Assembly (NCBI GenBank): GCA_964016885.1
Contig: OZ024752.1
Span: 33,170,001-33,234,000 of the forward strand
Direction of reading: 5' to 3'
Source: Eledone cirrhosa
Lineage: Eukaryota
Length of the DNA: 64,000 bases
The stretch's first letter is position 1, and each line of letters starts with the position of its first letter. A model generated the notes under the pieces. That model had not been told where the DNA came from. It was given only the letters and a program-made list of their open reading frames with translations, and made no database searches. The position numbers and the translations under genes were made by a program. Of this stretch, positions 98 through 53,867 are shown one piece after another.

Positions 98-1977
98 AAC
101 AGGAGGTATTCAAGATTGCGAGGCAGTGTGTCAGAGATAGTTGTGATGTCATTGGAGAGAAGTGTATCCGGAATGATAAAGGTGAGCTTGCCCTCACAAG
201 TGCTGAGAAGAAAGATGCATGGAAGAGTCATTATGATAGATTACTAAATGAGGAGAATGCATGGGAAGAAGAGACCCTACCCCACGTAGACCCTATAGAG
301 GGACCAGCAGTACAAGTCAGCGGCAGCGTAGTAAGTAAGGCAATCAGAGATATGAAGATAGGGAAGGCAACCGGTCCATCGGGTATAGCTGCCGAGATGC
401 TGAAGGCATCTGGGTCTGTAGGTCACACTATAACCACACGTATCGTTAACCAGGTAATACTAGAGGGGGCCATACCAAAAGATTGGTGCAGTAGCATCAT
501 TGTCAACTGCTACAAAGGTAAAGGCGATGCACTAGATAGAGGAAACTATAGAGGTATAAAGTTGATGGACCAGGTCATGAAAGTAACAGAAAGAGTTATA
601 GCACAGCTGATTAGGGACCGGGTGAATATAGACGAGATGCAATTTGGGTTTGTACCAGGGAAAGGCACCACTGATGCGCTCTTCCTTGTGAGGCAATTAC
701 AGGAAAAGTACCTAGCTAAAAGTAAGCCACTCTACTTGGCATTTGTCGACCTTGAGAAAGCCTTTGACAGAGTTCCACGTGCAGTAATCTGGTGGGCTCT
801 TAGAAAACTAGGAGTAGATGAATGGCTTGTGAAAGCGGTACAAGCCATGTATAGGGGAGCAGTCAGCAAAGTTAGGATTGGCAATGAGTATAGCGAGGAA
901 TTTAGCGTACAGGTTGGGGTCCACCAGGGCTCTGTTCTTAGCCCTCTCCTGTTCATCATAGTCCTGCAGGCAATAACGGAGGAGTTTAAGACCGGATGCC
1001 CATGGGAACTCCTGTATGCTGATGACCTCGCACTCATAGCTGAATCTATGGTAGAACTAGAGAATAAATTCCAAACCTGGAAGCAGGGACTAGAGAGAAA
1101 GGGCCTCAAAGTCAACATGACAAAGACTAAGGTCCTTATAAGTAGACGAGAAAACAGAACCCAGATCCCCTCAGGGAAATGGCCTTGCTCAGTATGTAGG
1201 AAAGGTGTAGGTAGGAACTCCATTCTTTGCCCCAAATGCAAACAATGGGTACACAAGAGATGTAGCGGGATCTCAGGAAGCTTAATTAAGAATGTAGGAT
1301 TCACATGCAGCAGCTGTGCTGAAACAGCAAGCAAACAGCCACAGGAAACAAGTACCACCAATCTCTGGGAGGGCCCTGTAGAAACAGTAGACAGCTTCTG
1401 CTACCTAGGTGACCGAATTAGCAACGGAGGTGGGTGCTCAGAAAGTACAATAACTAGGGTAAGAACGGGATGGAAGAAGTTTAGGGAACTACTACCACTG
1501 CTAGCTGCAAAAGGCTTCTCCCTCAGAATGAAAGGCAGACTGTATGATGCGTGTATCCGAACAGCGATGTTGCATGGTAGTGAGACCTGGGCGCTGAAGG
1601 TGGAAGACTTACGTAGATTAGAGAGAAACGAAGCCTGCATGCTCCGATGGATGTGTAACAGTAATATACGTGAACGACAAAGCATAAATGAATTGAGAGA
1701 GAGACTGAGCATAAGAGGAATCAAATGCTGCGTGCAGGAGAGGCGGTTACGCTGGTATGGACATGTGATGCGTATGAAGGATGACAGCTGCATAAAAAGG
1801 TGCAGAGCACTAGAAGTTGATGGAAACCGCGGAGTGGGGAGACCCAAGATGACTTGGGATGAGGTGATAAAAGCCGACCTTACCCAACTACACCTCTCAA
1901 AGTCAATGACACACGACCGTGACTTCTGGCGTCACGCAGTAATACAGGGTACCCGACCTCCCATGGGTACATGCTGA
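98..1977 (+). CDS. Non-LTR retrotransposon reverse transcriptase (RTE clade), N-terminally truncated, with an embedded C4HC3 PHD-like finger
   Basis: Motifs GKATGPSGI, NYRGIKL, QFGF, FVDLEKAFDRV, GVHQGSVLSPLLF, LLYADD, FCYLG, LHGSETW, RRLRWYGHV, GRPKMTW. The ORF-track start at 10 is only microsatellite read-through. Confidence 0.92.
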
Positions 1978-4058: not shown

Positions 4059-4700
4059 CTGTAACATGAAGAAATAACTGTTACTTTCTAATTCTGTAAA
4101 CTATAAACCCCATATTTAGACTAATTCTTCATCTCTTCTCACTTCTTCCCTGTGTTGTCTTCACATAAGCTGACTTTGATTGTTAATATTTACATTATGG
4201 TTGTAAACATATCAACAAATTTTACTATTCTATTATATCCTGTTTATAATTCAGTGTTCTAAGTTCAATACAATACAATAACTAGAAAATCAATATATAT
4301 CATTATTATCCTCATCATCACCATTTAACATCCATTTTTCCACACTAACATGATTAATGATTCTATTTACAATATTCTCAAAATAGAAGAACTGGTCAAC
4401 ATAATTGGATGCAAACAAAGTCCCAGGTTTAATATCAGAGTGACCTTCTTCTAGAAAGATGTCTTAATGAAGATGACAAGTCTCTTGCTCCACATAAAAA
4501 AAAATTTTTTAAATCTTATTGGATGGCCATTGACTGAGTTCCTCCACCCTTTGACAGGCTTTGTTTTTCATCCCACAGGGTGTCCAAGATCACCCTCCTC
4601 ACCAAGCAAGCTTGATGGGGTTGCCGACTTGACTATACATACATACACACACACATACATAAGAAATTGCTTTGAATCAAAATGACAGAACTAATACTAC

Positions 4701-5720
4701 CTCTACAGACTTTTGGTGTTGAAGCTGTTGAGCACTCAACTGAAAATGTGCTGCAGACAATTCTTCTTTCACTAAATTCAATTCAGATGAAACCATTTCT
4801 TGGTTTTCTTCAATTTCATCTCTTAAACGGTTAATAGTTTCTTCTTTCTCTTGTAAAATATCTTTGAAATCTTGTTCGGATAACTGCAAGTGTTTATTAT
4901 CTTCAAGCAAATGATCTTTGTCAACTTGTAAGGAATCTATCACAGACTGTAAAGTTATTCGCATATCATTGGACTTCATATTTTCCAAGATAGTTTGATC
5001 GAGTTCTTGTTTTATATCAATTTTTTCTGTTTCGGTTTTCACGACTTTCACATGTAAATCGGCTGTTTCCTTCTTTAAACTTTCCATTCCTTTCGTAAGA
5101 TTTTGGTTTTCTTCTAAAACTTCATTTAGCTTAGTTTGGAATTTTTCTTTAGAACGAAGTAATTGTTCTTCGGTTTCTTTATGTTTCTCATTTATTACTG
5201 ATATCTGCATCTCATATTGTTCTTTATATTCTTCAACTTCGGATTGAAGAGCAAAGTGTTTCTCTTTTAATTCTTCATGATTCTTTTCTAAAGAGGACAG
5301 TTTTTCACTGAGTTCTTCATTTTGAAAAAGCATATTTTCTCTTTCACTATCAAAATTGGTAATCTCGTCTTTAGAAGCTTCATTCATCTCCCCTAAAGTA
5401 ATACATTCTTTATCTTTTATATCTAAATCAGATTCTAGCTTTTGAATACATTCTTTCAAATACGAATTCTCAGAGGTCATTTTTCCCATTTTTTCACCGA
5501 AATCAGATTCTTGTTTTTGTAAATCTGCCGTCAGTGATTTAGAACTTTCCAATTCTGATTTTAAAATCAATATTTCTGTTAGAATTTCTTCATCTGGCTC
5601 TTGTTGTTGATGTAAATTTCTTTGGAGATTTTCAGTTTTAGCTTCTTTTACAAAGTCAAACAGTTTCTGTACAGTGTTACTCAGTTCATCATCCATAGAT
5701 TCAAAATTAGAAACACTATC
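4701..5720 (-). CDS. FYCO1: FYCO1 coding exon 9 (long coiled coil, 340 codons)
   Basis: Matches ORF 4677..5696. ttgtag acceptor, GAG|GTAGTA donor, phase 0/0. Confidence 0.88.
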
Positions 5721-6766: not shown

Positions 6767-7515
6767 TGCATACATACATAATATATATACTCTACTATCG
6801 ACTACTCGTATTGGTACAACCTCCAGTAATCGACAAAGGGGAATTGTTTTTTAATTTTGATTTTAACATTATTAATTTAATCTAGGACTTCGATCATCAT
6901 CATTATCATCATCATGGTTTAAGGTCCACTTCCCATGCTTGCATAAGTTAGATGGTTTGTCACATTAAGAGACAAATCAGGTCCAAAGACCACATCATGC
7001 TCATACGGATCTGTATTTTGGCTAGGTTTCTACAGCTGAATGCCCTTCCTAATGCCAACCACTAAATATATTTACACATTTCATCATCATCATCATTTCA
7101 TTTTACGTCTGCTTTTTCCCTGCTTGCAAGGGTGGGACGGGAACTGATTCTGGCTTGATTTCTACAGCTGGATGCCCTTCCTAACACCAACCTCATTTAC
7201 AGTGAGTGCTGGGTGCTTTTTTGCCGTGGCACCTACACGTCCACTTTACAGTGGAATAATAGAGACCCCAGTCCCTATCATCTCATTTCTACAGCTGAGT
7301 AAACTGGAGCAATTTTAATTATTCATAACCTATAAGTTTCATATAGTTATTTTTTGTATTGTGTTAACAAACATATCTGGAGAGGAGATGGGCTCCACCA
7401 GGTTTTAAAAAATGCCCTAGAAACTCCATATATCAATACAGTATCCCTACGACACCCTAGGGTGTTACAGGACCATACGTGAAACAAGCCTACACAGTAT
7501 ATAGACCAACCTTAC

Positions 7516-7776
7516 CTGTTCATCAATAGATTCTAAATCTAAAAGATTATTTAGAGTAAATTTCAGTTGTTGAGATTGTTGTTGGTATTTGTTTAATAGC
7601 TCAGCTTTCTCTTCAACCGATTGTTGTAGCAACACAAGCTCTTCATTCTGTCGGTGAAGTTCTCGTTGGACTTCTTCAAAATCTTCACATTTCCTTTGCA
7701 AACGGCGATTTTCCCATAAAATTTTTTCAAGTTCATTTTCATATTCTTGCTTCAAATTTTCCACACTGTCGCAATT

Positions 7777-7829
<53 letters not shown>

Positions 7830-8152
7830 TAATAGTATCATTTTCATTTTCTTGTGATGCTGTCAAAGGTTGGAATTGTTCTTCTTGCACGGCTGTTGTT
7901 TCAGCAACTTCAATTTCTGTGGACTTCAAACTATTTATTTGTTGCTCCAGAATAGCCTTTTCCTTCTCCAAGACATCTATCCTGGATTTGTTAGTATTAA
8001 CAATTTGTTCATGTTCAAACTCTATCTCGGTCAATTTGATCTGAAGAGACTTAAGGCCTTCTGTAAGATTTCTTCGCTCTAAATCTAATCTGTCCTTTTC
8101 ATCTCGCCAAGCTTGCTGGGAATTACTAAATTCTATACTCAAGGAATCGTAA
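7516..8152 (-). CDS. FYCO1: FYCO1 coding exon 8 (coiled coil with a poly-Asp tract)
   Basis: Matches ORF 7465..8142. ttgcag acceptor, CAG|GTAAGG donor, heptad-rich E/K/L/Q sequence. Confidence 0.88.
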
Positions 8153-8741
8153 CTGCAAAGAAAGAATTGGAAAGATTGAACGTAAAATTAAACAGATGGA
8201 GGTCTACTTGCTGATAACAATCACAATTTGGAAAAAAAGTTATCATAGACATATTTATAAACACCCTTAACAAATAAGTATTTCTACTTTTGGCACAAGG
8301 CCAGCAATTACCCCAGTGCATTACTGGTACTTCATTTTATCGATCCCTGTAAGGATGAAAGGCAAAGTTAACCTTGGCAGGATTTGAACTCAGAACGTAA
8401 AGGGCCATAACTCTATGCTACAAAGCATGACGTCTGACGCTCTACCGATACTGCCAATCCCTTAACAAATAATATAATTAGTTCCTTATATTCTGAAGAA
8501 GGGAATTTAAAGTCCTGGAATATTAGTTTGTAAGAAACAACAGCAACAAAACAAAAACAAACCAAAGATTACCAGGTAACTTACTTTTCTGTTACCTTCA
8601 TTTTAGGTCTATTTTGCATTGTTTAGCCTTATATCACTTTCCACATTATATATAATTAACTAAATTAACAGAAGTAATGAATTGAACAACAACAACAAAG
8701 AAAGAGAGAAAGAAAGAGGAAGAAGAAAAAGAAGGATTTAC

Positions 8742-13105: not shown

Positions 13106-13276
13106 ATATATTATATATATATATATATATTATATATATATATATATATATATGAATATAGACATAGAATATTCGAAAATATTCTGTATGTTTATAATAA
13201 ACATTTTGAAGACCTAATCGCTATAGAATAGAATACGTCACGTATTACAATTAGATTCTCGATAAAAGCAAGGGAA

Positions 13277-13319
13277 GTAATCTACGCGTTTCATTCTCGT
13301 TAGAAATCATCAGGACTAC
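13277..13319 (-). ncRNA. Type I hammerhead ribozyme (inverted copy of 13733-13775)
   Basis: Exact reverse complement of the plus-strand copy. Confidence 0.85.
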
Positions 13320-13732
13320 ATATCCAGTGCTTTTATCGAGAATGACACAGCTAGAGACTTATAGAATACTTAGCTGTGTACAGGAACTGGTTTGAAAGAG
13401 CGGTTGCCGGTCCGGCAGAAATTAGAAATTGGAATAAATGCTCTGAAATAGCGATATATATGTGAATATAGACATAGAATATTCGAAAATATTCTGTATG
13501 TTTATAATAAACATTCTATAGCGATTAGGTCTTCAAAATGTTTATTATAAACATACAGAATATTTTCGAATATTCTATGTCTATATTCACATATATATCG
13601 CTATTTCAGAGCATTTATTCCAATTTCTAATTTCTGCCGGACCGGCAACCGCTCTTTCAAACCAGTTCCTGTACACAGCTAAGTATTCTATAAGTCTCTA
13701 GCTGTGTCATTCTCGATAAAAGCACTGGATAT

Positions 13733-13775
13733 GTAGTCCTGATGATTTCTAACGAGAATGAAACGCGTAGATTAC
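13733..13775 (+). ncRNA. Type I hammerhead ribozyme (minimal stem III)
   Basis: GTAGTC-CTGATGA-T.TTCT(AACG)AGAA.T-GAA-ACGCGT-A/GATTAC. Predicted GUA cleavage after 13769. Confidence 0.85.
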
Positions 13776-13928
13776 TTCCCTTGCTTTTATCGAGAATCTA
13801 ATTGTAATACGTGACGTATTCTATTCTATAGCGATTAGGTCTTCAAAATGTTTATTATAAACATACAGAATATTTTCGAATATTCTATGTCTATATTCAC
13901 ATATATATCGCTATTTCAGAGCATTTAT

Positions 13929-13987
<59 letters not shown>

Positions 13988-23893: not shown

Positions 23894-24605
23894 TACAACA
23901 ATTGGAAAGAAAGAATAGTTGACAAAAAAGTGGATAAATGGATGTGTTTGATGTTTCCTAAAATGTCAGTTAATAATAAATAAGGCAGAAGTTGTTTATT
24001 CAAAACAGTTATCATATAACTGCTTCTACTTTAGGCACAAGGCCAGCAATTACCCAGTGCATTACTGGTACTTTATTTTATCGACCCCGTAAGGATGAAA
24101 GGCAAAGTCAACCTCGGCAGGATTTGAACTCAGATTGGAAAGGGCCGTAACTCTATGCGTCAAAGCATGGCGTCCGACCCTCTACCGATACTGCCAATCC
24201 ACCGCCCTATATATATTTAAATAATTGTTTCTACTTTAGGCACAAGGCCAGCAATTACCCAGTGCATTACTGGTACTTTATTTTATCGACCCCGTAAGGA
24301 TGAAAGGCAAAGTCAACCTCGGCGGGATTTGAACTCAGATCGTAAAGGGACGTAACTATGCTGGAAAGCATGGCGTCCGACCCTCTACCGATACTGCCAA
24401 TCCACCGCCCATAACAGTTATCATATAACGGTTGGTAATTTCAGATCTGACACTTTGTGTTTTGGTTCTCAGTGTTAAAAGTAAGCACAGTGGAAATATA
24501 TATTTCTCTATTTATCTGTCAGTCCATCTGTCTGTCTATCTATTTATCTGTCTGTCTGTCAGTCCATCTGTCTGTCTATCTATCTATCTATCTATCTATC
24601 TATCA

Positions 24606-25310
24606 AGATCTGTCCGAGGTGCGTGCGAGACGAAGAAACCGTCGCGCAGGCATTCATACACTGCCCGGGCGTCACCGACCTGTGGGGCTATGTAGAACGA
24701 CTATTGTCGCGGGTGGGACCAATCCGGTTGACCACCGAGTCCATTGTCATGATCAAACCGCCACCCTCCTTCAAAAAGGAAGGAGAGGCGGTTTTCCTTT
24801 GTGTGATAGCTATGGCGAAAGAGGTTATATGGTGGACAAGGTTGAAAGGGCTGAGGTCAGACACCTTTCTCTCCGGCCAACAACTGATTCTTTTTTTCAA
24901 ATACCACTTTGGAAGAAGAATCAGGATGGAGAGAGAGGTGCTGTACCCCAGCAAGTTTTATGAAAAGTGGGTGGAGAGAGAGGTGCTGTACCCCAGCAAG
25001 TTTTATGAAAGGTGGGTGAAAGTGGCGAGAATGGCTCGAGTGAATGGGCCTTCTCTCTATATCAGCCTGTAGGTTGAGGAAAAGGAGGAAGAGAGGAAGG
25101 GGTACGAACTCTTCGTACTCCTGGAGATGAGGGTTGCACACTTTTTCGGGGGTATGTGTTACCCATATAAACTGTCTCCCCCTATTGGGGAAAATCGACT
25201 AACTTTTTAAATTGCATTTGTGATAACATTTTACACATTTTTATTGTATGTAAACTTCCCCCTTTGTATTTGTCCCCTTCTTTTGTGCCCCTGTGGCTAA
25301 TAAAGAAACA
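24606..25310 (+). mobile_element. 3' end of an L1/Tx1-like LINE in (TATC)n; related fragment at 27130-27640
   Basis: CPRCVRDEETVAQAFIHCP (zf-RVT-like), 3' UTR, AATAAA, then (TATC)n. Internal 45-bp duplication. Confidence 0.72.
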
Positions 25311-34100: not shown

Positions 34101-34985
34101 CAGAGAAGGATAGTGAGAGAATGAAAGTGAAAAAGAGATATAGACGAAGAATCAACCCCAGTACTTGACAAAGTTTACCTCAGCGGGATTTGAACTCAGA
34201 GATTAGGGAGCCTTAACGAATACCACAAAGCACTCTATTCAACATCCTAACGACTCTACCAATTTGCCGCCTTATATAATAGGAATCATAAATCTTGTCA
34301 GAGTCTTCGTCAGATTGCAAAGCTGAAAAGCGGTTTTGCAACTCAAGTTTAAATCGGCTTGCTGTTTCGTTACATGAGAGTTTGTCTAAGTTAACTTTCG
34401 ATGGTATTTTAGTTCATGTTGATGCACAGTCTGCAACTGGCGGAGTTTAGCGTCACAAGAAGATAATAGGAATTATTCAGATTTTATTCGTATTTCTTTT
34501 TTTAAATATAAATATGATTTGGTTAGTCGAGACAGTGTGAAAGGCTTCTCAGGAGCAATCCTTGTTTCTTTGATTAAGATTCTGTTTTTGATATTTAAAT
34601 AAAATCAATGAGTTAAGCAGGTTTCAGATGAGGTTTAGTTGTTATAATTTCATTTATCAATCTAGTGGACTAGTGAAGGAACTTCTACTTAACACAGTTG
34701 CTCAATAAACAGAACTAGCTGCCCAACCCCATCAAATCATATTTTTCTGTCTTAACAAAGAAAAACCAACACATTGAATAATGTATTTCTTTGGAAATAC
34801 GAAATTCCGATACATATCTGTATACAGCTATGCTGGAAGCTAAATCCTAATTCTATTATTCTATTATAAGTTGAGCCAACTTATACAGCTTCATATGCAA
34901 ATGAGATTAATCACCTCATTTTCACAGACGAGAAAACTATATATTCTCGCCTGTTTTCAAGTCCAGCAGTTGCAAGAGCGGGAGT

Positions 34986-35031
34986 GATCGTACTGATGAG
35001 GACCATTTCAGTTCGAAATGCATCGACGATT
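34986..35031 (+). ncRNA. Type I hammerhead ribozyme with a long extended stem I
   Basis: GATCGTA-CTGATGA-GGAC(CATTTCA)GTTC-GAA-ATGCAT-C/GACGATT. Outer pairings CCAGCAG/CTGCTGG, GCAAG/CTTGC, GGGA/TCCC. First stem I pair is mismatched. Confidence 0.75.
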
Positions 35032-35107
35032 GTCCCCCTTGCTTCTGCTGGAGACCGCCAGGTAGCGATAGCCTCCGGTGTTTTTGCATAGCTACGGCTT
35101 TCTAAAT

Positions 35108-35168
<61 letters not shown>

Positions 35169-37120: not shown

Positions 37121-37201
37121 TAAGTTATTCCGGGTTGAATCGGAGGTAACCACAGTAAGTAAGGTACTCAATACATAGCAGAGTATAAAAGTTTGAATAT
37201 A

Positions 37202-37260
37202 GATGAGATTCTACAGGACTAGAACTGTTTCATTCTTGAGAAATCATCAGGAATCTCATC
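37202..37260 (-). ncRNA. Type I hammerhead ribozyme with a full stem III (family C; element 37119-37260)
   Basis: GATGAGATTC-CTGATGA-T.TTC(TCAA)GAA.T-GAA-ACAG(TTCTAGTC)CTGT-A/GAATCTCATC. Perfect 10-bp stem I. Confidence 0.85.
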
Positions 37261-38666: not shown

Positions 38667-39098
38667 CTAAGGCGGGTAAAATTCCCGAGATCCATGGACG
38701 AGTTCTCTCCAGCGGTCTCTGTCCCTCATTATCGCTGCCATGTCCTGCGTCTCCAATAGACCAGTGTCTGTCCTTAGGGCATCAACATACGTTAACCTTG
38801 GTCTTCCACTTCTAGTGTGTCCATGTAGGGGCTCCCAAAGGAGCACTGAGTGCAATGTCAACTCTGGATGTCGGTGAGCATGTCCAGCTAACCTCAGTCT
38901 CCTCTGTGTCACTTTTGAGCTGACTTTTGGGATGCTCCCATACAGCTCTGAGTTTTTCATCCTCAGTGTATACTGATTAATGTTCAGAGCCATCCTCAGC
39001 ATTCTCGTGTAGCACCCATCCACCATCTGAGTGAGTTTCTTGGTCAGTGTCCAAGTCTCAGACCCATACAGCAGCACAGACTCCACTACAGCAATGAA
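38667..39098 (-). mobile_element. 3' end of a second RTE-clade LINE family; near-identical shorter copy at 56357-56624 (+)
   Basis: VLLYGSETW..RMLR..RRLRLAGH..GRPRLTYVD..RDRDRWRELV. The stop codon is followed directly by microsatellite. Confidence 0.82.
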
Positions 39099-39190
<92 letters not shown>

Positions 39191-39193
<3 letters not shown>

Positions 39194-39278
39194 GACCTGT
39201 CAACTCTCCCCGCCCGACGGGGAGATCACCCACCCACTTTGGGTGATCTCCCCGACGGACGGGGAGAGTTGACAGTTG
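39191..39278. repeat. GC-rich hairpin, probably a tiny MITE
   Basis: CTGTCAACTCTCCCCG..CGGGGAGATCACCCA / TGGGTGATCTCCCCG..CGGGGAGAGTTGACAG. Confidence 0.7.
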
Positions 39279-39619
39279 ATATCAGAAACTTCTCTTGTGA
39301 AAAAATACGTATAGCTTTCATTTGGTGGATTGGCAGTATCGGTAGAGGGTCGGCCGCCATGCTTTGCAGCAAAGAGTTACGTCCCTTTATGGTCTGAGTT
39401 CGAATTCCACCGAGGTTAACTTTGCCTTTCATCCTTACGGGGTCGATAAAATAAAGTACCAGTAATACACTGGGATAATTGCTGGCCAAAAGTAGAAACA
39501 ATTATGTAAAAATCTCCCCATTTTGCCTCACTTCTCGTTTTGGGCCACTTTTTTTCATGGTACTCCTCGTTTGGGTTTTTAGAGGTTGTCTGGTCTGATG
39601 TGTGTCTGTCTGTCTGAGT

Positions 39620-40255: not shown

Positions 40256-40303
<48 letters not shown>

Positions 40304-40441
40304 GCACACATATATACATGTACGTATGGATTCACCGAACATTTATTATAATGCTCGGTGTGTTTGTAAACAAACATCCCGAATTAAGCCGTACAGTGTC
40401 TAGCAACCATCGTTGCTCATTTGTTCAACACTGACAAAGGA

Positions 40442-40484
40442 ACGCTGTACTAGTTTCAAGCTTATTAGCTATCGTCAGCAACGT
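40442..40484 (-). ncRNA. Minimal type I hammerhead ribozyme (family F, copy 1)
   Basis: ACGTTG-CTGACGA-T.AGCT(AATA)AGCT.T-GAA-ACTAGT-A/CAGCGT. Confidence 0.87.
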
Positions 40485-40859
40485 ATACCTTCCTGCTAGA
40501 TTGTTGAACGTATATATTTACCTTATGCATATTAACGGCTGAGAAGCCCAATTTGCATATCGAGTGAGTTAATCGGCCGGGTGCACCGAAAACGATAAAC
40601 GGAAAAAATGAAACGAAATCACATTTCCCACTATTAGTACGGCTGTTACTTAAATATAAGTATGTATACGTACATACATATATGTATACAGACGTACAGT
40701 AGTATGTATATATATATACATGCACACATATATATATGTACGTATGGATTCACCGAACATTTATTATAATGCTCGGTGTGTTTGTAAACAAACATCCCGA
40801 ATTAAGCCGTACAGTGTCTAGCAACCATCGTTGCTCATTTGTTCAACACTGACAAAGGA

Positions 40860-40902
40860 ACGCTGTACTAGTTTCAAGCTTATTAGCTATCGTCAGCAAC
40901 GT
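40860..40902 (-). ncRNA. Minimal type I hammerhead ribozyme (family F, copy 2)
   Basis: Identical to 40442-40484. Confidence 0.87.
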
Positions 40903-41337
40903 ATACATTCCTGCTAGATGATTGAACGTCTGAAAGTATATACTTTCCTTGTGCACATTAACGGCTGAGCAGCCTAATTTGCATATCGAGTGAGTTAATC
41001 GGCCGGGTGCACCGAAAACGATAAACGGAAAAAAATGAAACGAAATCACATTTCCCACTCTTAGTACGGCTGTTACTTAAATATAAGTATGTATACGTAC
41101 ATACATATATGTATACAGACGGACAGTAGTATGTATATATATATATATACATGCACACATATATACATGTACGTATGGATTCACGTATGTGTGCATGTAT
41201 GTATATATATATACATACTACTGTACGTCTGTATACATATATGTATGTACGTGTACATACTTATATTTAAGTAACAGCATACATATATACGCATACATTC
41301 AATTCAAACACACACAGGTATATATATATATATATAA

Positions 41338-49775: not shown

Positions 49776-50601
49776 CAATATATAGACAGTTTTATGGCTT
49801 TTGGCTGTTATATATTTGTATATTTTTTGTAAAGTATGTGTGCCTGCATGTGAAGAGGGCCTTCTCTTCCTTCTTTCCTTCCTTTCTTTCTTTCTCTATT
49901 CTAAACCAATGTAACACTACAGTGCCTTAAATTGTTAACAGTAAAAAAAAAAAAAAAATAAAAACCTTGGATGAGCCAAGAGTTCTCTCCCTTGCTTGTT
50001 TCTCGTCATCTGAACTATTTTTGAGTCATGAAATTGTGACGGTAGTCGCAAGTGATTGAGGTATTTGGAAACTCTGTATATTATTTGTTCGACTAACAAT
50101 GGTGGATTGGCAGTATCGGTAGAGAGTCGGACGCTATGCTTTCCAGCATAGTTACGTCCCTTTACGGTCTGAGTTCAAATCCCGCCGAGGTTCACTTTGC
50201 CTTTCATCCTTACGGGGTCGATAAAATAAAGTACCAGTAATGCACTGGGTAATTGATGGCCTTGTGCCAAAAGTAGAAACAATTATTTGTTCGACTAACT
50301 TCACTATTGAGGGTAAGTAACCTAGAGAAAACGGTAACAGAAATAATAGTCAAAGAAGTCGGTTACAACGTAGGAAAACCGAGAACGGACAGACAAATAC
50401 TCTCGGGCCCCAAATAATAGAATGGGTTGGACATTTGATTAAATTCTTATAAGACTTCTATGGTGTGTCTTTTTTATATTGTATTTATCTATGTGTGTAT
50501 ATATATATATGTGTGTGTATGTGTGTGTGTGTGTGTGTGTGTTGTTATACTTAAGGGAGGGTCATACTGCCAACCAATAAAGGCAGTATATATATATATA
50601 T

Positions 50602-51186
50602 AAATTAGAATTGGTGCTCTGAAATACCGATATATATATGAATGTATATACAGTGTATTTTGCAATACACTGTATGCTTAATTAAAAGCATTTTGAAGAC
50701 CATACGCTATTGTTTTAAAGTAGTGACAATGTCACTTACTTAAATTTTCAGAAAACAGGGGAGATAAGCTGACACAGCTCTGTTTCGTACTTGTTGGTAC
50801 TTATCAAAGCTCACTACTCTTCCTGTTTGCTGAAAATTATGTGTGTTGGATTCTTATAGAATTCCAGTAATAATCAGGAACTGATTATACAGAGCGGTTG
50901 CCAGTCCAGCAGAAATTGAAAATTAGAATTGGTGCTCTGTATAATCAATTCCTGATTATTACTGGAATTCTATAAGAATCCAACACACATAATTTTCAGC
51001 AAACAGGAAGAGTAGTGAGCTTTGATAAGTACCAACAAGTACGAAACAGAACTCTGTCAGCTTATCTCCCCTGTTTTCTGAAAATTTAAGTAAGTGACAT
51101 TGTCACTACTTTAAAACAATAGCGTATGGTCTTCAAAATGCTTTTAATTAAGCATACAGTGTATTGCAAAATACACTATATATACA

Positions 51187-51190
<4 letters not shown>
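50602..51190. mobile_element. Retrozyme/PLE-like element, family A': 318-nt monomer, greater than unit length, plus an inverted arm, within (TA)n
   Basis: AAATTAGAATTGGTGCTCTG at 50602 and 50920. Flip at about 50935. Shares conserved blocks with 13154-13934. Confidence 0.85.
51015..51065 (+). ncRNA. Type I hammerhead ribozyme, U3-A8 core variant (inverted copy at 50764-50814)
   Basis: GTGAGCT-TTGATAA-GTAC(CAACAA)GTAC-GAA-ACAGA(AC)TCTGT-C/AGCTTAT. Predicted GUC cleavage after 51058. Confidence 0.8.
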
Positions 51191-51225
<35 letters not shown>

Positions 51226-51229
<4 letters not shown>

Positions 51230-51413
51230 GCTTCTACAGGACTAGAACTGTTTCATTCGTGAGAAACCGCCAGGAAGCTCTTCCTGACGATTTCTCACGA
51301 ATGAAACAGTTCTAGTCCTGTAGAAGTTCTTCTATATTAAAACATTTATACTCTGCTATGCATTGAGTACCTTACTTACTGTGGTTACCTCCAATTCAAC
51401 TCGGAATAATTTA
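51226..51413. mobile_element. Family C HHR element with an inverted duplicate of the ribozyme (plus HHR about 51280-51326; minus copy 51226-51282 with a mutated core)
   Basis: CTGACGA..GAAACAG..CTGTA on plus; CTGGCGG on minus. The 3' body is homologous to 37119-37200. Confidence 0.8.
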
Positions 51414-53200: not shown

Positions 53201-53747
53201 TAATGGTCAGCATCAACAGTTTTCCAAGAGATAGCAACATGAATGGACCTGTTATTTTTCTCTAACAATGTTTTTTTCCGATTCCACCCCACCCGTCTCC
53301 TCAATCTTTATGTTTCTTCTTTAATTTTTCATTCTATTTTCTAATAAAGGACTAGCGTCCGAAACATTAAGGCTCTTTTCCTACAATATCAATCGTAAAA
53401 CTAATAATATATTTCTTCTTTGTACTGTGTTGTTTGCTTTGTTATTTCTGGTTGCCTTTTGTCTATATATATATATAGATATATATATATATATATAGAT
53501 AGATATATATATAGATATATATATATAGATAGATATATATATATATATATAGATATAGATATATATATATATATAGATAGATATATATATAGATATATAT
53601 ATATATATTAGAAAGTGAGGTTTTTTTTACAAAATGAAAAATAACCGAGGTGTCCTACACGAGTGAAAGTATAAAGAAAAAGAGATGAAATCGAAAATGC
53701 AACTGGAGTCTTATTTTTTTTTTTTAAATATATATATTTATTTGGTT

Positions 53748-53785
53748 CCTTTACCGGTTTCGCAGTTCTTCTGCTTTTCAAAAGG
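53748..53785 (-). ncRNA. Minimal type I hammerhead ribozyme, U3-A8 core variant (family H)
   Basis: CCTT-TTGAAAA-GCAG(AAGAA)CTGC-GAA-ACCGGT-A/AAGG. Decayed relative at 37471-37511 (-) has stem II GCAT/ATGC. Confidence 0.72.
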
Positions 53786-53867
53786 TGAGTTGAGATGGAG
53801 GGTCTGTGGTTTTTCTCATATATATATAGATATATATATATTGATATATATAGATATATATATATAT

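What the first reader, a model, noticed from the sequence alone, without database searches (positions are those of the whole stretch)
50602..51190. 318-nt sister element keeps the RNA architecture of the 310-nt element despite sequence turnover
Seen on the HHR-sense strand: (i) short blocks are shared with 13154-13934 (GGTCTTCAAAATG; ATATATCGSTATTTCAGAGCA; AATTTCTGCYGGACYGGCAACCGCTCT). (ii) A hairpin at the same position has different stems and loops: CAGAATATT-TTCG-AATATTCT versus CAGTGTATT-GCAA-AATACACT, i.e. UUCG versus GNRA loops. (iii) The preceding hairpin is TGTTTAT/ATAAACA versus TGCTT/AAGCA. (iv) The HHR is enclosed by a long outer helix, ATTCTCGATAAAAGCA/TGCTTTTATCGAGAAT versus AATTTTCAG.AAACAGG/CCTGTTT.CTGAAAATT. 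Inference: selection acts on a viroid-like structured RNA, and the invariant blocks are candidate recognition signals for the helper RT or promoter elements.
Basis: partly seen in the sequence, partly recalled or inferred. Interest (0 to 1): 0.85.

Follow-up and report, generated by a model that had tools for sequence, protein, structure and literature searches.

The report
Penelope-mobilised hammerhead retrozyme family
This is a small, non-coding jumping element carrying a self-cutting RNA; it and several sister families keep the same RNA fold, and their insertion ends carry the marks of the Penelope type of copying enzyme, which points to the part of the RNA that the enzyme probably recognises.

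Summary
Observation confirmed. The 318-nt element (family B) and the 310-nt element (family A) are 61% identical, ORF-less repeats with a type I hammerhead, i.e. animal non-LTR retrozymes: 16,468 exact hits of the shared block, 978 of B's ribozyme. Stems covary between families (A vs B: 15 of 19 changed pairs change on both sides; catalytic C3·G8 becomes U3·A8), and more distant sisters (B2, D, F, G) keep the helix order. Selection acted on source lineages; this copy is decaying. The UUCG/GNRA and viroid readings do not hold.

Added here: insertions are two inverted arms in (TA)n, one ending at a fixed short point, the other about 35 nt further (15 of 15 two-armed A insertions; 14 of 17 two-ended B loci), about 130 nt past the ribozyme cut. 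This matches the two RT start sites ('tail') shown biochemically for a Penelope-like element (PLE). Units within an A insertion are identical across both arms, as a circular template predicts. No RNA evidence was obtained, and no helper PLE with this domain was found in 90 loci.

The parts
50602..50939 (-). Family B long arm: 1.06 units of the 318-nt retrozyme; its 3' end (long RT start) at 50602 runs into (TA)n
50934..51190 (+). Family B short arm: 5'-truncated inverted copy; its 3' end (short RT start) at about 51190 runs into (TA)n; a 6-nt overlap with the other arm lies on the closing-helix arm
50765..50813 (-). Type I hammerhead, U3·A8 core variant, predicted cut between 50771 and 50770; private break in helix III
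   Evidence: (HH9 E 0.08, below gathering)
51016..51065 (+). Type I hammerhead of the short arm; folds as a three-way junction in the MFE; predicted cut after 51058
   Evidence: (HH9 E 0.07, below gathering)
50743..50838 (-). Outer helix enclosing the ribozyme (arms 50822-50838 and 50743-50759); second copy 50991-51007 / 51070-51086 (+)
50607..50711 (-). Conserved 3' domain: enclosing helix, block i, two hairpins, AU tract, block ii; surrounds both RT start points
   Evidence: 115.5 bits; this copy is in the model's training set
50602..50638 (-). PLE-type 'tail' (37 nt) between the short and long start points; contains block ii
   Evidence: comparison with PMC11167929
50891..50917 (-). Block iii: small hairpin plus the partner arm of the helix that closes onto block ii
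50853..50862 (-). Fourth invariant block (TATA-like, in a hairpin loop); second copy 50967-50976 (+); role unknown
50587..50601 (.). (TA)n target, left flank
51191..51224 (.). (TA)n target, right flank
13154..13515 (-). Family A short arm (1.2 units), 3' end at the short start point, in (AT)n
13513..13934 (+). Family A long arm (1.36 units); hammerhead 13733-13775 with canonical core and minimal palindromic helix III, predicted cut after 13769; 35-nt tail 13900-13934

Best explanation
Families A and B are non-autonomous non-LTR retrozymes that use a Penelope-like (PLE) RT/GIY-YIG enzyme in trans. Cycle: (1) a tandem or 1+-unit locus is transcribed [inferred]; (2) type I hammerheads cut out a 310/318-nt monomer, which a host ligase circularises [inferred from coral, mussel and axolotl retrozymes, PMC7229834; A's minimal palindromic helix III suggests cleavage as a dimer]; (3) the PLE protein binds a conserved structured domain about 130 nt downstream of the cut [inferred; the domain's conservation and position are shown]; (4) it nicks both strands of a (TA)n target and primes two cDNAs at two fixed internal sites about 35 nt apart [fixed end points shown; enzymology from PMC11167929]; (5) both cDNAs run for a variable length round the same template and are joined at their far ends, giving two inverted arms of identical units [structure shown; circular template inferred]. 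Selection on the fold acts on the few source lineages that transpose. Inserted copies such as this one then decay. A is the young, expanding family; B is an older sister.
For: Type I core with three stems in both families. C3·G8 to U3·A8 swap, a natural active variant. A vs B family-majority helices: 34 same, 15 both-sided, 3 one-sided, 1 lost of 53 pairs; private B changes have the partner changed in 6 of 80. 3' domain over A, A2, B, B2, D, F: 95.2% of cells paired, 8 of 20 pairs both-sided, slid controls 24-53%. Family D folded alone gives the same helix order. Ends: 15 of 15 two-armed A-type insertions have one arm ending at unit position 79 and the other at 103-110; long+short in 14 of 17 two-ended B loci and 11 of 16 two-ended B2 loci; 5' ends scattered. 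Within-insertion unit pairs identical in 308 of 327, against 6 of 55 between insertions; arms reach 9.9 units. RT+GIY-YIG PLEs are abundant and young here; several end in (AT)n with an internal AT tract plus a tail. PAc nicks and extends both strands from two internal starts that define the tail.
Against: No PLE carrying this domain or these blocks was found in 90 PLE-bearing loci, so the helper is unidentified. There is no evidence of expression, cleavage or circles. In PAc, ribozyme cleavage is dispensable and unprocessed RNA is the main substrate in vitro. Helices were chosen because they pair, only about 4-6 independent lineages contribute, and RNAalifold on the sequence-only alignment recovered just part of the structure. 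In B2, 5 of 16 two-ended loci were short+short, some of them misclassified neighbours. The best-matching B copies are mostly 2 units or fewer. The antisense strand folds as stably as the sense, so folding energy alone does not pick the strand.
Confidence: 0.8

Rival explanations
1. Same PLE-driven mobilisation, but the template is a linear, uncleaved multimeric transcript of a homogeneous source array (or arrays grow after insertion by unequal crossover); circles, if any, are by-products.
For: PAc uses unprocessed RNA and needs no ribozyme cleavage in vitro. Six of 55 array pairs share an identical unit, so homogeneous sources exist. The 2026 preprint proposes local tandem amplification. Assembly polishing could also homogenise units.
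Against: Array-specific variants are shared by both inverted arms, which crossover within one arm does not explain. Random 5' truncation would shorten arrays each generation, yet arms reach about 10 units. The ribozyme core is kept by compensatory change, implying cleavage matters in the cycle.
Confidence: 0.3
2. The elements are merely 5'-truncated pLTR ends of an autonomous PLE not yet sampled, with no independent life.
For: Two-armed, tailed, (TA)n-targeted structure is typical of PLE ends; pLTR-only inverted pairs of family N1 are common here; opposite-strand ribozyme pairs 100-700 bp apart were noted for PLEs; retrozyme-pLTR homology in Xenopus.
Against: The unit joins head to tail with no ORF, up to about 10 times. 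None of 90 PLE-bearing loci has the domain at a PLE end. A closing helix pairs across the unit junction.
Confidence: 0.1
3. The conserved stems come from DNA-level palindrome correction or template switching, not selection on RNA.
For: Several helices are near-perfect inverted repeats; the antisense folds as well as the sense; 2 of 15 A junctions and this B junction lie on helix arms.
Against: The 3-8 core pair is a tertiary pair that is not an inverted repeat. Long-range helices and G·U pairs are kept. Unpaired ribozyme core bases stay invariant.
Confidence: 0.07
4. A viroid-like replicon that replicates RNA-to-RNA and is only occasionally retro-copied; the blocks are polymerase or promoter signals.
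For: Size, high self-pairing and hammerhead resemble viroids; a TATA-like loop block is invariant in A, B and B2, and an octamer-like motif (recalled consensus) lies in D, E and G.
Against: The ribozyme is on one polarity only; the fold is branched; more than 16,000 DNA copies have PLE-type ends; the octamer-like motif is absent from A and B.
Confidence: 0.05

Closest known systems
Animal non-LTR retrozymes (coral, mussel, axolotl/newt satellite 2; Cervera & de la Pena 2020, PMC7229834; Li et al. 2026, bioRxiv 10.64898/2026.07.22.740005)
   Same: 310-330-nt ORF-less tandem units, one type I hammerhead each, low GC, several families per genome, co-occurring with PLEs; U·U at the base of helix II or a minimal palindromic helix III as in axolotl.
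   Different: Here insertions are two inverted arms with two fixed internal 3' ends in (TA)n, which the parts of those papers I read do not describe. B has a U3·A8 core. circRNA is not shown, and no matching pLTR was found.
Penelope-like elements, EN+ (Poseidon PAc, PMC11167929; Neptune/Naiad structure, bioRxiv 2021.04.23.441226)
   Same: Inverted 5'-truncated arm, 30-40-nt tail on one end only, internal start downstream of a hammerhead, AT-rich or microsatellite target.
   Different: No RT/GIY-YIG ORF; units repeat as about 310-nt monomers; no sequence match to the sampled resident PLE ends.
Hammerhead viroids and viroid-like satellite RNAs (Avsunviroidae; own knowledge)
   Same: Small, highly paired, hammerhead-bearing, probably circular.
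   Different: Genome-encoded, type I ribozyme on one strand only, spreads by DNA insertion.

Membership tests
non-LTR retrozyme | Type I hammerhead in each unit | tested here: met
   Core and three stems in A, A2, B, B2, D; Rfam gathering not reached, HH9 E 0.07-0.08
non-LTR retrozyme | Tandem units of 150-450 bp | tested here: met
   310/311/312-nt arrays, arms to 9.9 units; B period 318-320, mostly 2 units or fewer
non-LTR retrozyme | No ORF; no LTR organisation; GC below 50% | tested here: met
   No ORF of 120 aa or more over either locus; GC 0.28-0.36 in the 1-kb bins; PBS/PPT not searched separately
non-LTR retrozyme | Self-cleavage of the transcript | not testable with these tools
   Structure only
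non-LTR retrozyme | Expressed as linear and circular monomer RNA | tested here: inconclusive
   No RNA holder listed; 340-nt records equal to one unit plus 30 in two runs of unrecorded kind fit a circle or a tandem DNA equally
non-LTR retrozyme | Target-site duplication longer than 4 bp, when present | tested here: inconclusive
   Both flanks are (TA)n, so a duplication cannot be read
Penelope-like element (autonomous) | ORF with RT and GIY-YIG endonuclease | tested here: not met
Penelope-like element (insertion signature) | 30-40-nt tail at one end only | tested here: met
   35 nt (A), 37 nt (this B copy)
Penelope-like element (insertion signature) | Inverted 5'-truncated adjacent copy | tested here: met
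   15 of 19 A-type regions two-armed; most B loci
Penelope-like element (insertion signature) | AT-rich or microsatellite target | tested here: met
PLE-derived retrozyme (Li et al. 2026) | Homology to the pLTR of a resident autonomous PLE | tested here: inconclusive
   None in 90 loci, about 10 families, out of tens of thousands of candidates
Hammerhead viroid | Ribozymes in both polarities; no DNA stage | tested here: not met
   One polarity per arm; thousands of genomic copies

The most novel reading that the evidence does not exclude
The roughly 105-nt multibranch domain is a portable entry signal for a Penelope-type RT, read mainly by shape. It lets a superfamily of at least six small circular RNAs (A, B, B2, D, F, G, perhaps E) hijack a helper PLE with which they share no sequence. 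One PLE dimer copies a single circle from two fixed starts by rolling-circle reverse transcription, writing two inverted arms of identical units into (TA)n. The insertion anatomy would then be direct genomic evidence for the proposed retrozyme life cycle, and would define the minimal RNA element for PLE target-primed insertion of circular cargo.
Probability: 0.45. Interest if true: 0.72.

Novelty: new member of a known kind. Interest (0 to 1): 0.52.

Why it matters
Which enzyme mobilises animal retrozymes, what it recognises, and whether the circle is the template are stated as open in PMC7229834 and in the 2026 preprint, whose evidence is co-occurrence and pLTR homology. Here a very young family (0.8% from its majority) and several diverged sisters give fixed start points at base resolution, a covarying domain round them, and clonal multi-unit arms. 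That turns the question into a short in vitro test with resident PLE proteins. The class itself is known, which limits the surprise.

Tried and rejected
Rfam: nothing at gathering; the miRNA-like hits only reflect the inverted repeat, and twister-P3 at E 1.1 is chance. Helper search: 50 + 20 GIY-YIG loci, 18 loci of a second PLE clade and 2 of a third; BLAST, block, descriptor and covariance-model scans hit only independent retrozyme insertions. The B copy 4 kb from a 938-aa PLE ORF (L091) lies beyond that PLE's 3' end and is taken as coincidental. An apparent A2-N1 chimera (L180) is A2 inserted into an internal TA tract of an N1 pair. Long RNA-target pairing through the AU tract is not required: B2 has an interrupted tract yet the same short end, and most A junctions drop the base before the tract. 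UUCG/GNRA loop classes rejected. Sequencing runs: no RNA holder listed; 4 of 6 runs laid, all contigs of unrecorded kind, no evidence either way; their four different organism labels were not interpreted. One search had one row with wrong coordinates (A2_111) and is not used. No simulated null for the compensatory counts and no G·U/A·C strand count were obtained. Two look-ups of earlier scan findings were empty. The supplement of PMC7229834 could not be read, and the preprint's supplements were not seen; either could list related families.

Full report
Setting. The window is G000:C12:33170001-33234000 of a 3.0-Gb, repeat-rich animal genome. It looks octopod-like to me from recalled repeat content; no call names the organism. 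Both loci lie in (TA)n runs, and no ORF of 120 aa or more overlaps them.

Observation. The locus is two inverted arms: 50602-50939 (-), 1.06 units of 318 nt, and 50934-51190 (+), 5'-truncated. The 310-nt element has the same build (13154-13515 -, 13513-13934 +). Monomers fold well beyond shuffles (z -6.1 and -4.1), but so do their antisense strands, so energy alone is weak evidence. Each unit holds a type I hammerhead. A has the canonical core and a minimal palindromic helix III. B has U3·A8 and a 4-bp helix III, and its plus-arm copy folds into the three-way junction as the MFE. Rfam gives nothing at gathering and only weak HH9 hits. U3·A8 is a natural, active covariation (PMC3088659, passages). 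Short palindromic helix III and dimer cleavage are typical of animal type I ribozymes (PMC4209133, passages).

Families. Block iii has 16,468 exact hits, control 0. Block i linked to block ii has 18,117; 93 of the first 100 listed are A-type and 7 B-type. B's ribozyme has 978 exact hits and B had 2,776 first-look candidates. Among 74 distinct full monomers there are three clusters, with medoid identity A-B 0.61, B-B2 0.81 and A-B2 0.61. Divergence from the family majority is 0.8% (A), 0.9% (A2), 3.5% (B) and 2.5% (B2) in best-scoring copies, so these are lower bounds. More distant relatives with the same 3' domain turned up in flanks: D (about 325 nt, copies 78-87% alike), F (L015), G (L233 and window 34775-35110) and, weakly, E (window about 40280-41070).

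Is the fold selected? Using family-majority letters and hand-registered helices, A vs B gives 34 unchanged pairs, 15 changed on both sides, 3 on one side and 1 lost, of 53. B vs B2 gives 6 both-sided and none lost, of 48. Among private non-CpG changes in 24 B copies, the partner had also changed in only 6 of 80. Stems mutate at 0.027 against 0.039 elsewhere in B, and 0.023 against 0.022 in 8 B2 copies. So inserted copies drift, and the compensation belongs to the source lineages. On a sequence-only alignment of the 3' domain (25 rows, 24 distinct, six groups), 95.2% of cells pair and 8 of 20 pairs change on both sides; slid controls give 24-53%, while 'further pair types' does not beat the shuffles. 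Ten D copies folded alone return the same order of helices. Limits: helices were picked for pairing, few lineages are independent, RNAalifold on mixed alignments recovered only the two hairpins and the small helices, and no tree-aware null was run. The loop of the second hairpin varies freely (UUCG with a U-A closure, GCAA, GCCA, UUUA), so the tetraloop-class claim fails.

What the blocks mark. In 19 A-type regions (18 taken from the first listed genome hits, plus the window), 15 are two-armed. In all 15, one arm ends at unit position 79 and the other at 103-110, nearly always into (AT)n, while 5' ends are scattered; the 4 single-armed cases end at 79, 79, 100 and 105. For B, 14 of 27 loci are long+short, 8 long only, 1 short only, 2 short+short, 1 long+long, 1 unclassified. 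For B2, 11 of 29 are long+short, 8 short only, 5 short+short, 4 long only and 1 complex, with a short-ended query. For A2, 13 of 20 are long+short, two of them doubtful, and the rest are single ends in loci cut at 1.5 kb. 'Short' in that script means any end lacking the tail. Junction bases place the true short end just after a UUCA motif, before the AU tract, so the tail is 35-37 nt and begins about 130 nt after the ribozyme cut. Block i lies just upstream, block ii fills the tail, and block iii closes a helix onto block ii. This matches PAc, which nicks and extends both strands of AT-rich DNA from two internal starts that define the 30-40-nt tail, without homology to the target (PMC11167929, parts 1-2 of 4). 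It also matches the inverted, tailed, microsatellite-targeted PLE insertions of Craig et al. (passages).

Template. Within A insertions, 308 of 327 unit pairs are identical, including across both arms; between insertions only 6 of 55 are (mean 2.7 differences); arms reach 9.9 units. One circular RNA read repeatedly from two starts explains this most simply. A homogeneous linear multimer or assembly polishing is not excluded. Sequencing runs gave no evidence either way.

Helper. RT+GIY-YIG PLEs abound: 10,596, 49,588 and 27,652 first-look candidates in three searches, and domains were confirmed in 4 ORFs, one without a GIY-YIG hit. Several families with a CxxC linker (Neptune-like, label recalled) end in (AT)n, carry U3·A8 minimal ribozymes, and show an internal AT tract plus a tail. 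N1 and N4 have copy pairs 99.3-99.8% alike. None of 90 PLE-bearing loci has the A/B/D domain at a PLE end.

Relation to print. Animal non-LTR retrozymes are described, with circles shown in coral, mussel and axolotl and PLEs proposed as helpers (PMC7229834, parts 2-4 of 6; supplement unreadable). A 2026 preprint adds co-occurrence and pLTR homology (parts 1-3 of 5; supplements unseen). Searches for hammerhead + octopus, Penelope + hammerhead + cephalopod, retrozyme + inverted + Penelope + tail, and retrozyme + rolling circle + target site (listings only, apart from Craig et al.) showed no paper on these families or on PLE tails in retrozymes. The library lacks most subscription journals.

Verdict. 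A new member of a known kind, with an unusually clear mechanistic footprint. Confidence 0.8 for a PLE-mobilised retrozyme whose conserved domain surrounds the RT starts, and about 0.6 for a circular template. Interest 0.52.

Noticed in passing
window 51225-51400 (also 37196-37260; L105, L100, L092, L096, L019, L028): A different hammerhead element (C) directly right of the finding: a short palindromic pair of ribozyme copies with a fixed centre, extended on one side; helix II resembles A's, helix III resembles B's.
   Followed up: partly
window 34775-35110 (+); L233 59-663 and 2054-2308: Family G, a D-like sister retrozyme of about 350 nt with a hammerhead at 34987-35030 and long and short ends in (TA)n.
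   Followed up: partly
window about 40280-41070 (-); L101 8063-9600, L085, L102: Family E: tandem hammerhead units of 418 to about 500 nt with a weaker match to the two-hairpin domain and an octamer-like motif; frequent in flanks.
   Followed up: partly
L091-L110 3' UTRs: Four Neptune-like PLE families carry minimal hammerheads with the U3·A8 core, 110-220 nt before their (AT)n ends.
   Followed up: partly
window 53577-53821; L143, L147, L180: About 250-nt 3'-end-only pieces of PLE family N1, often as inverted pairs starting at the same 5' position, suggesting a fixed RNA 5' end.
   Followed up: no
G000 hits; L259, L260; window 50540-50590: A very large PLE family with many equally scoring copies and open frames to 1,147 aa; a relative's 3' end forms the left flank of the finding.
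   Followed up: partly
L112, L123; window 50934-50939: Some inversion junctions fall exactly on complementary helix arms (16-nt and 6-nt overlaps), as if the two cDNAs anneal through the RNA's own stems.
   Followed up: no
one search runs: Six runs under four organism labels hold 90-100% of family A words; close relatives, mixed samples or horizontal transfer cannot be told apart.
   Followed up: partly
window 4677-5720 and 7465-8187 (-): Two long open frames encoding acidic coiled-coil protein, probably exons of a host gene; if that gene extends upstream, these elements are intronic.
   Followed up: no
window 732-1931 (+), 24485-25072, 38667-39281: Fragments that look like LINE-type retrotransposons (by eye, not searched).
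   Followed up: no
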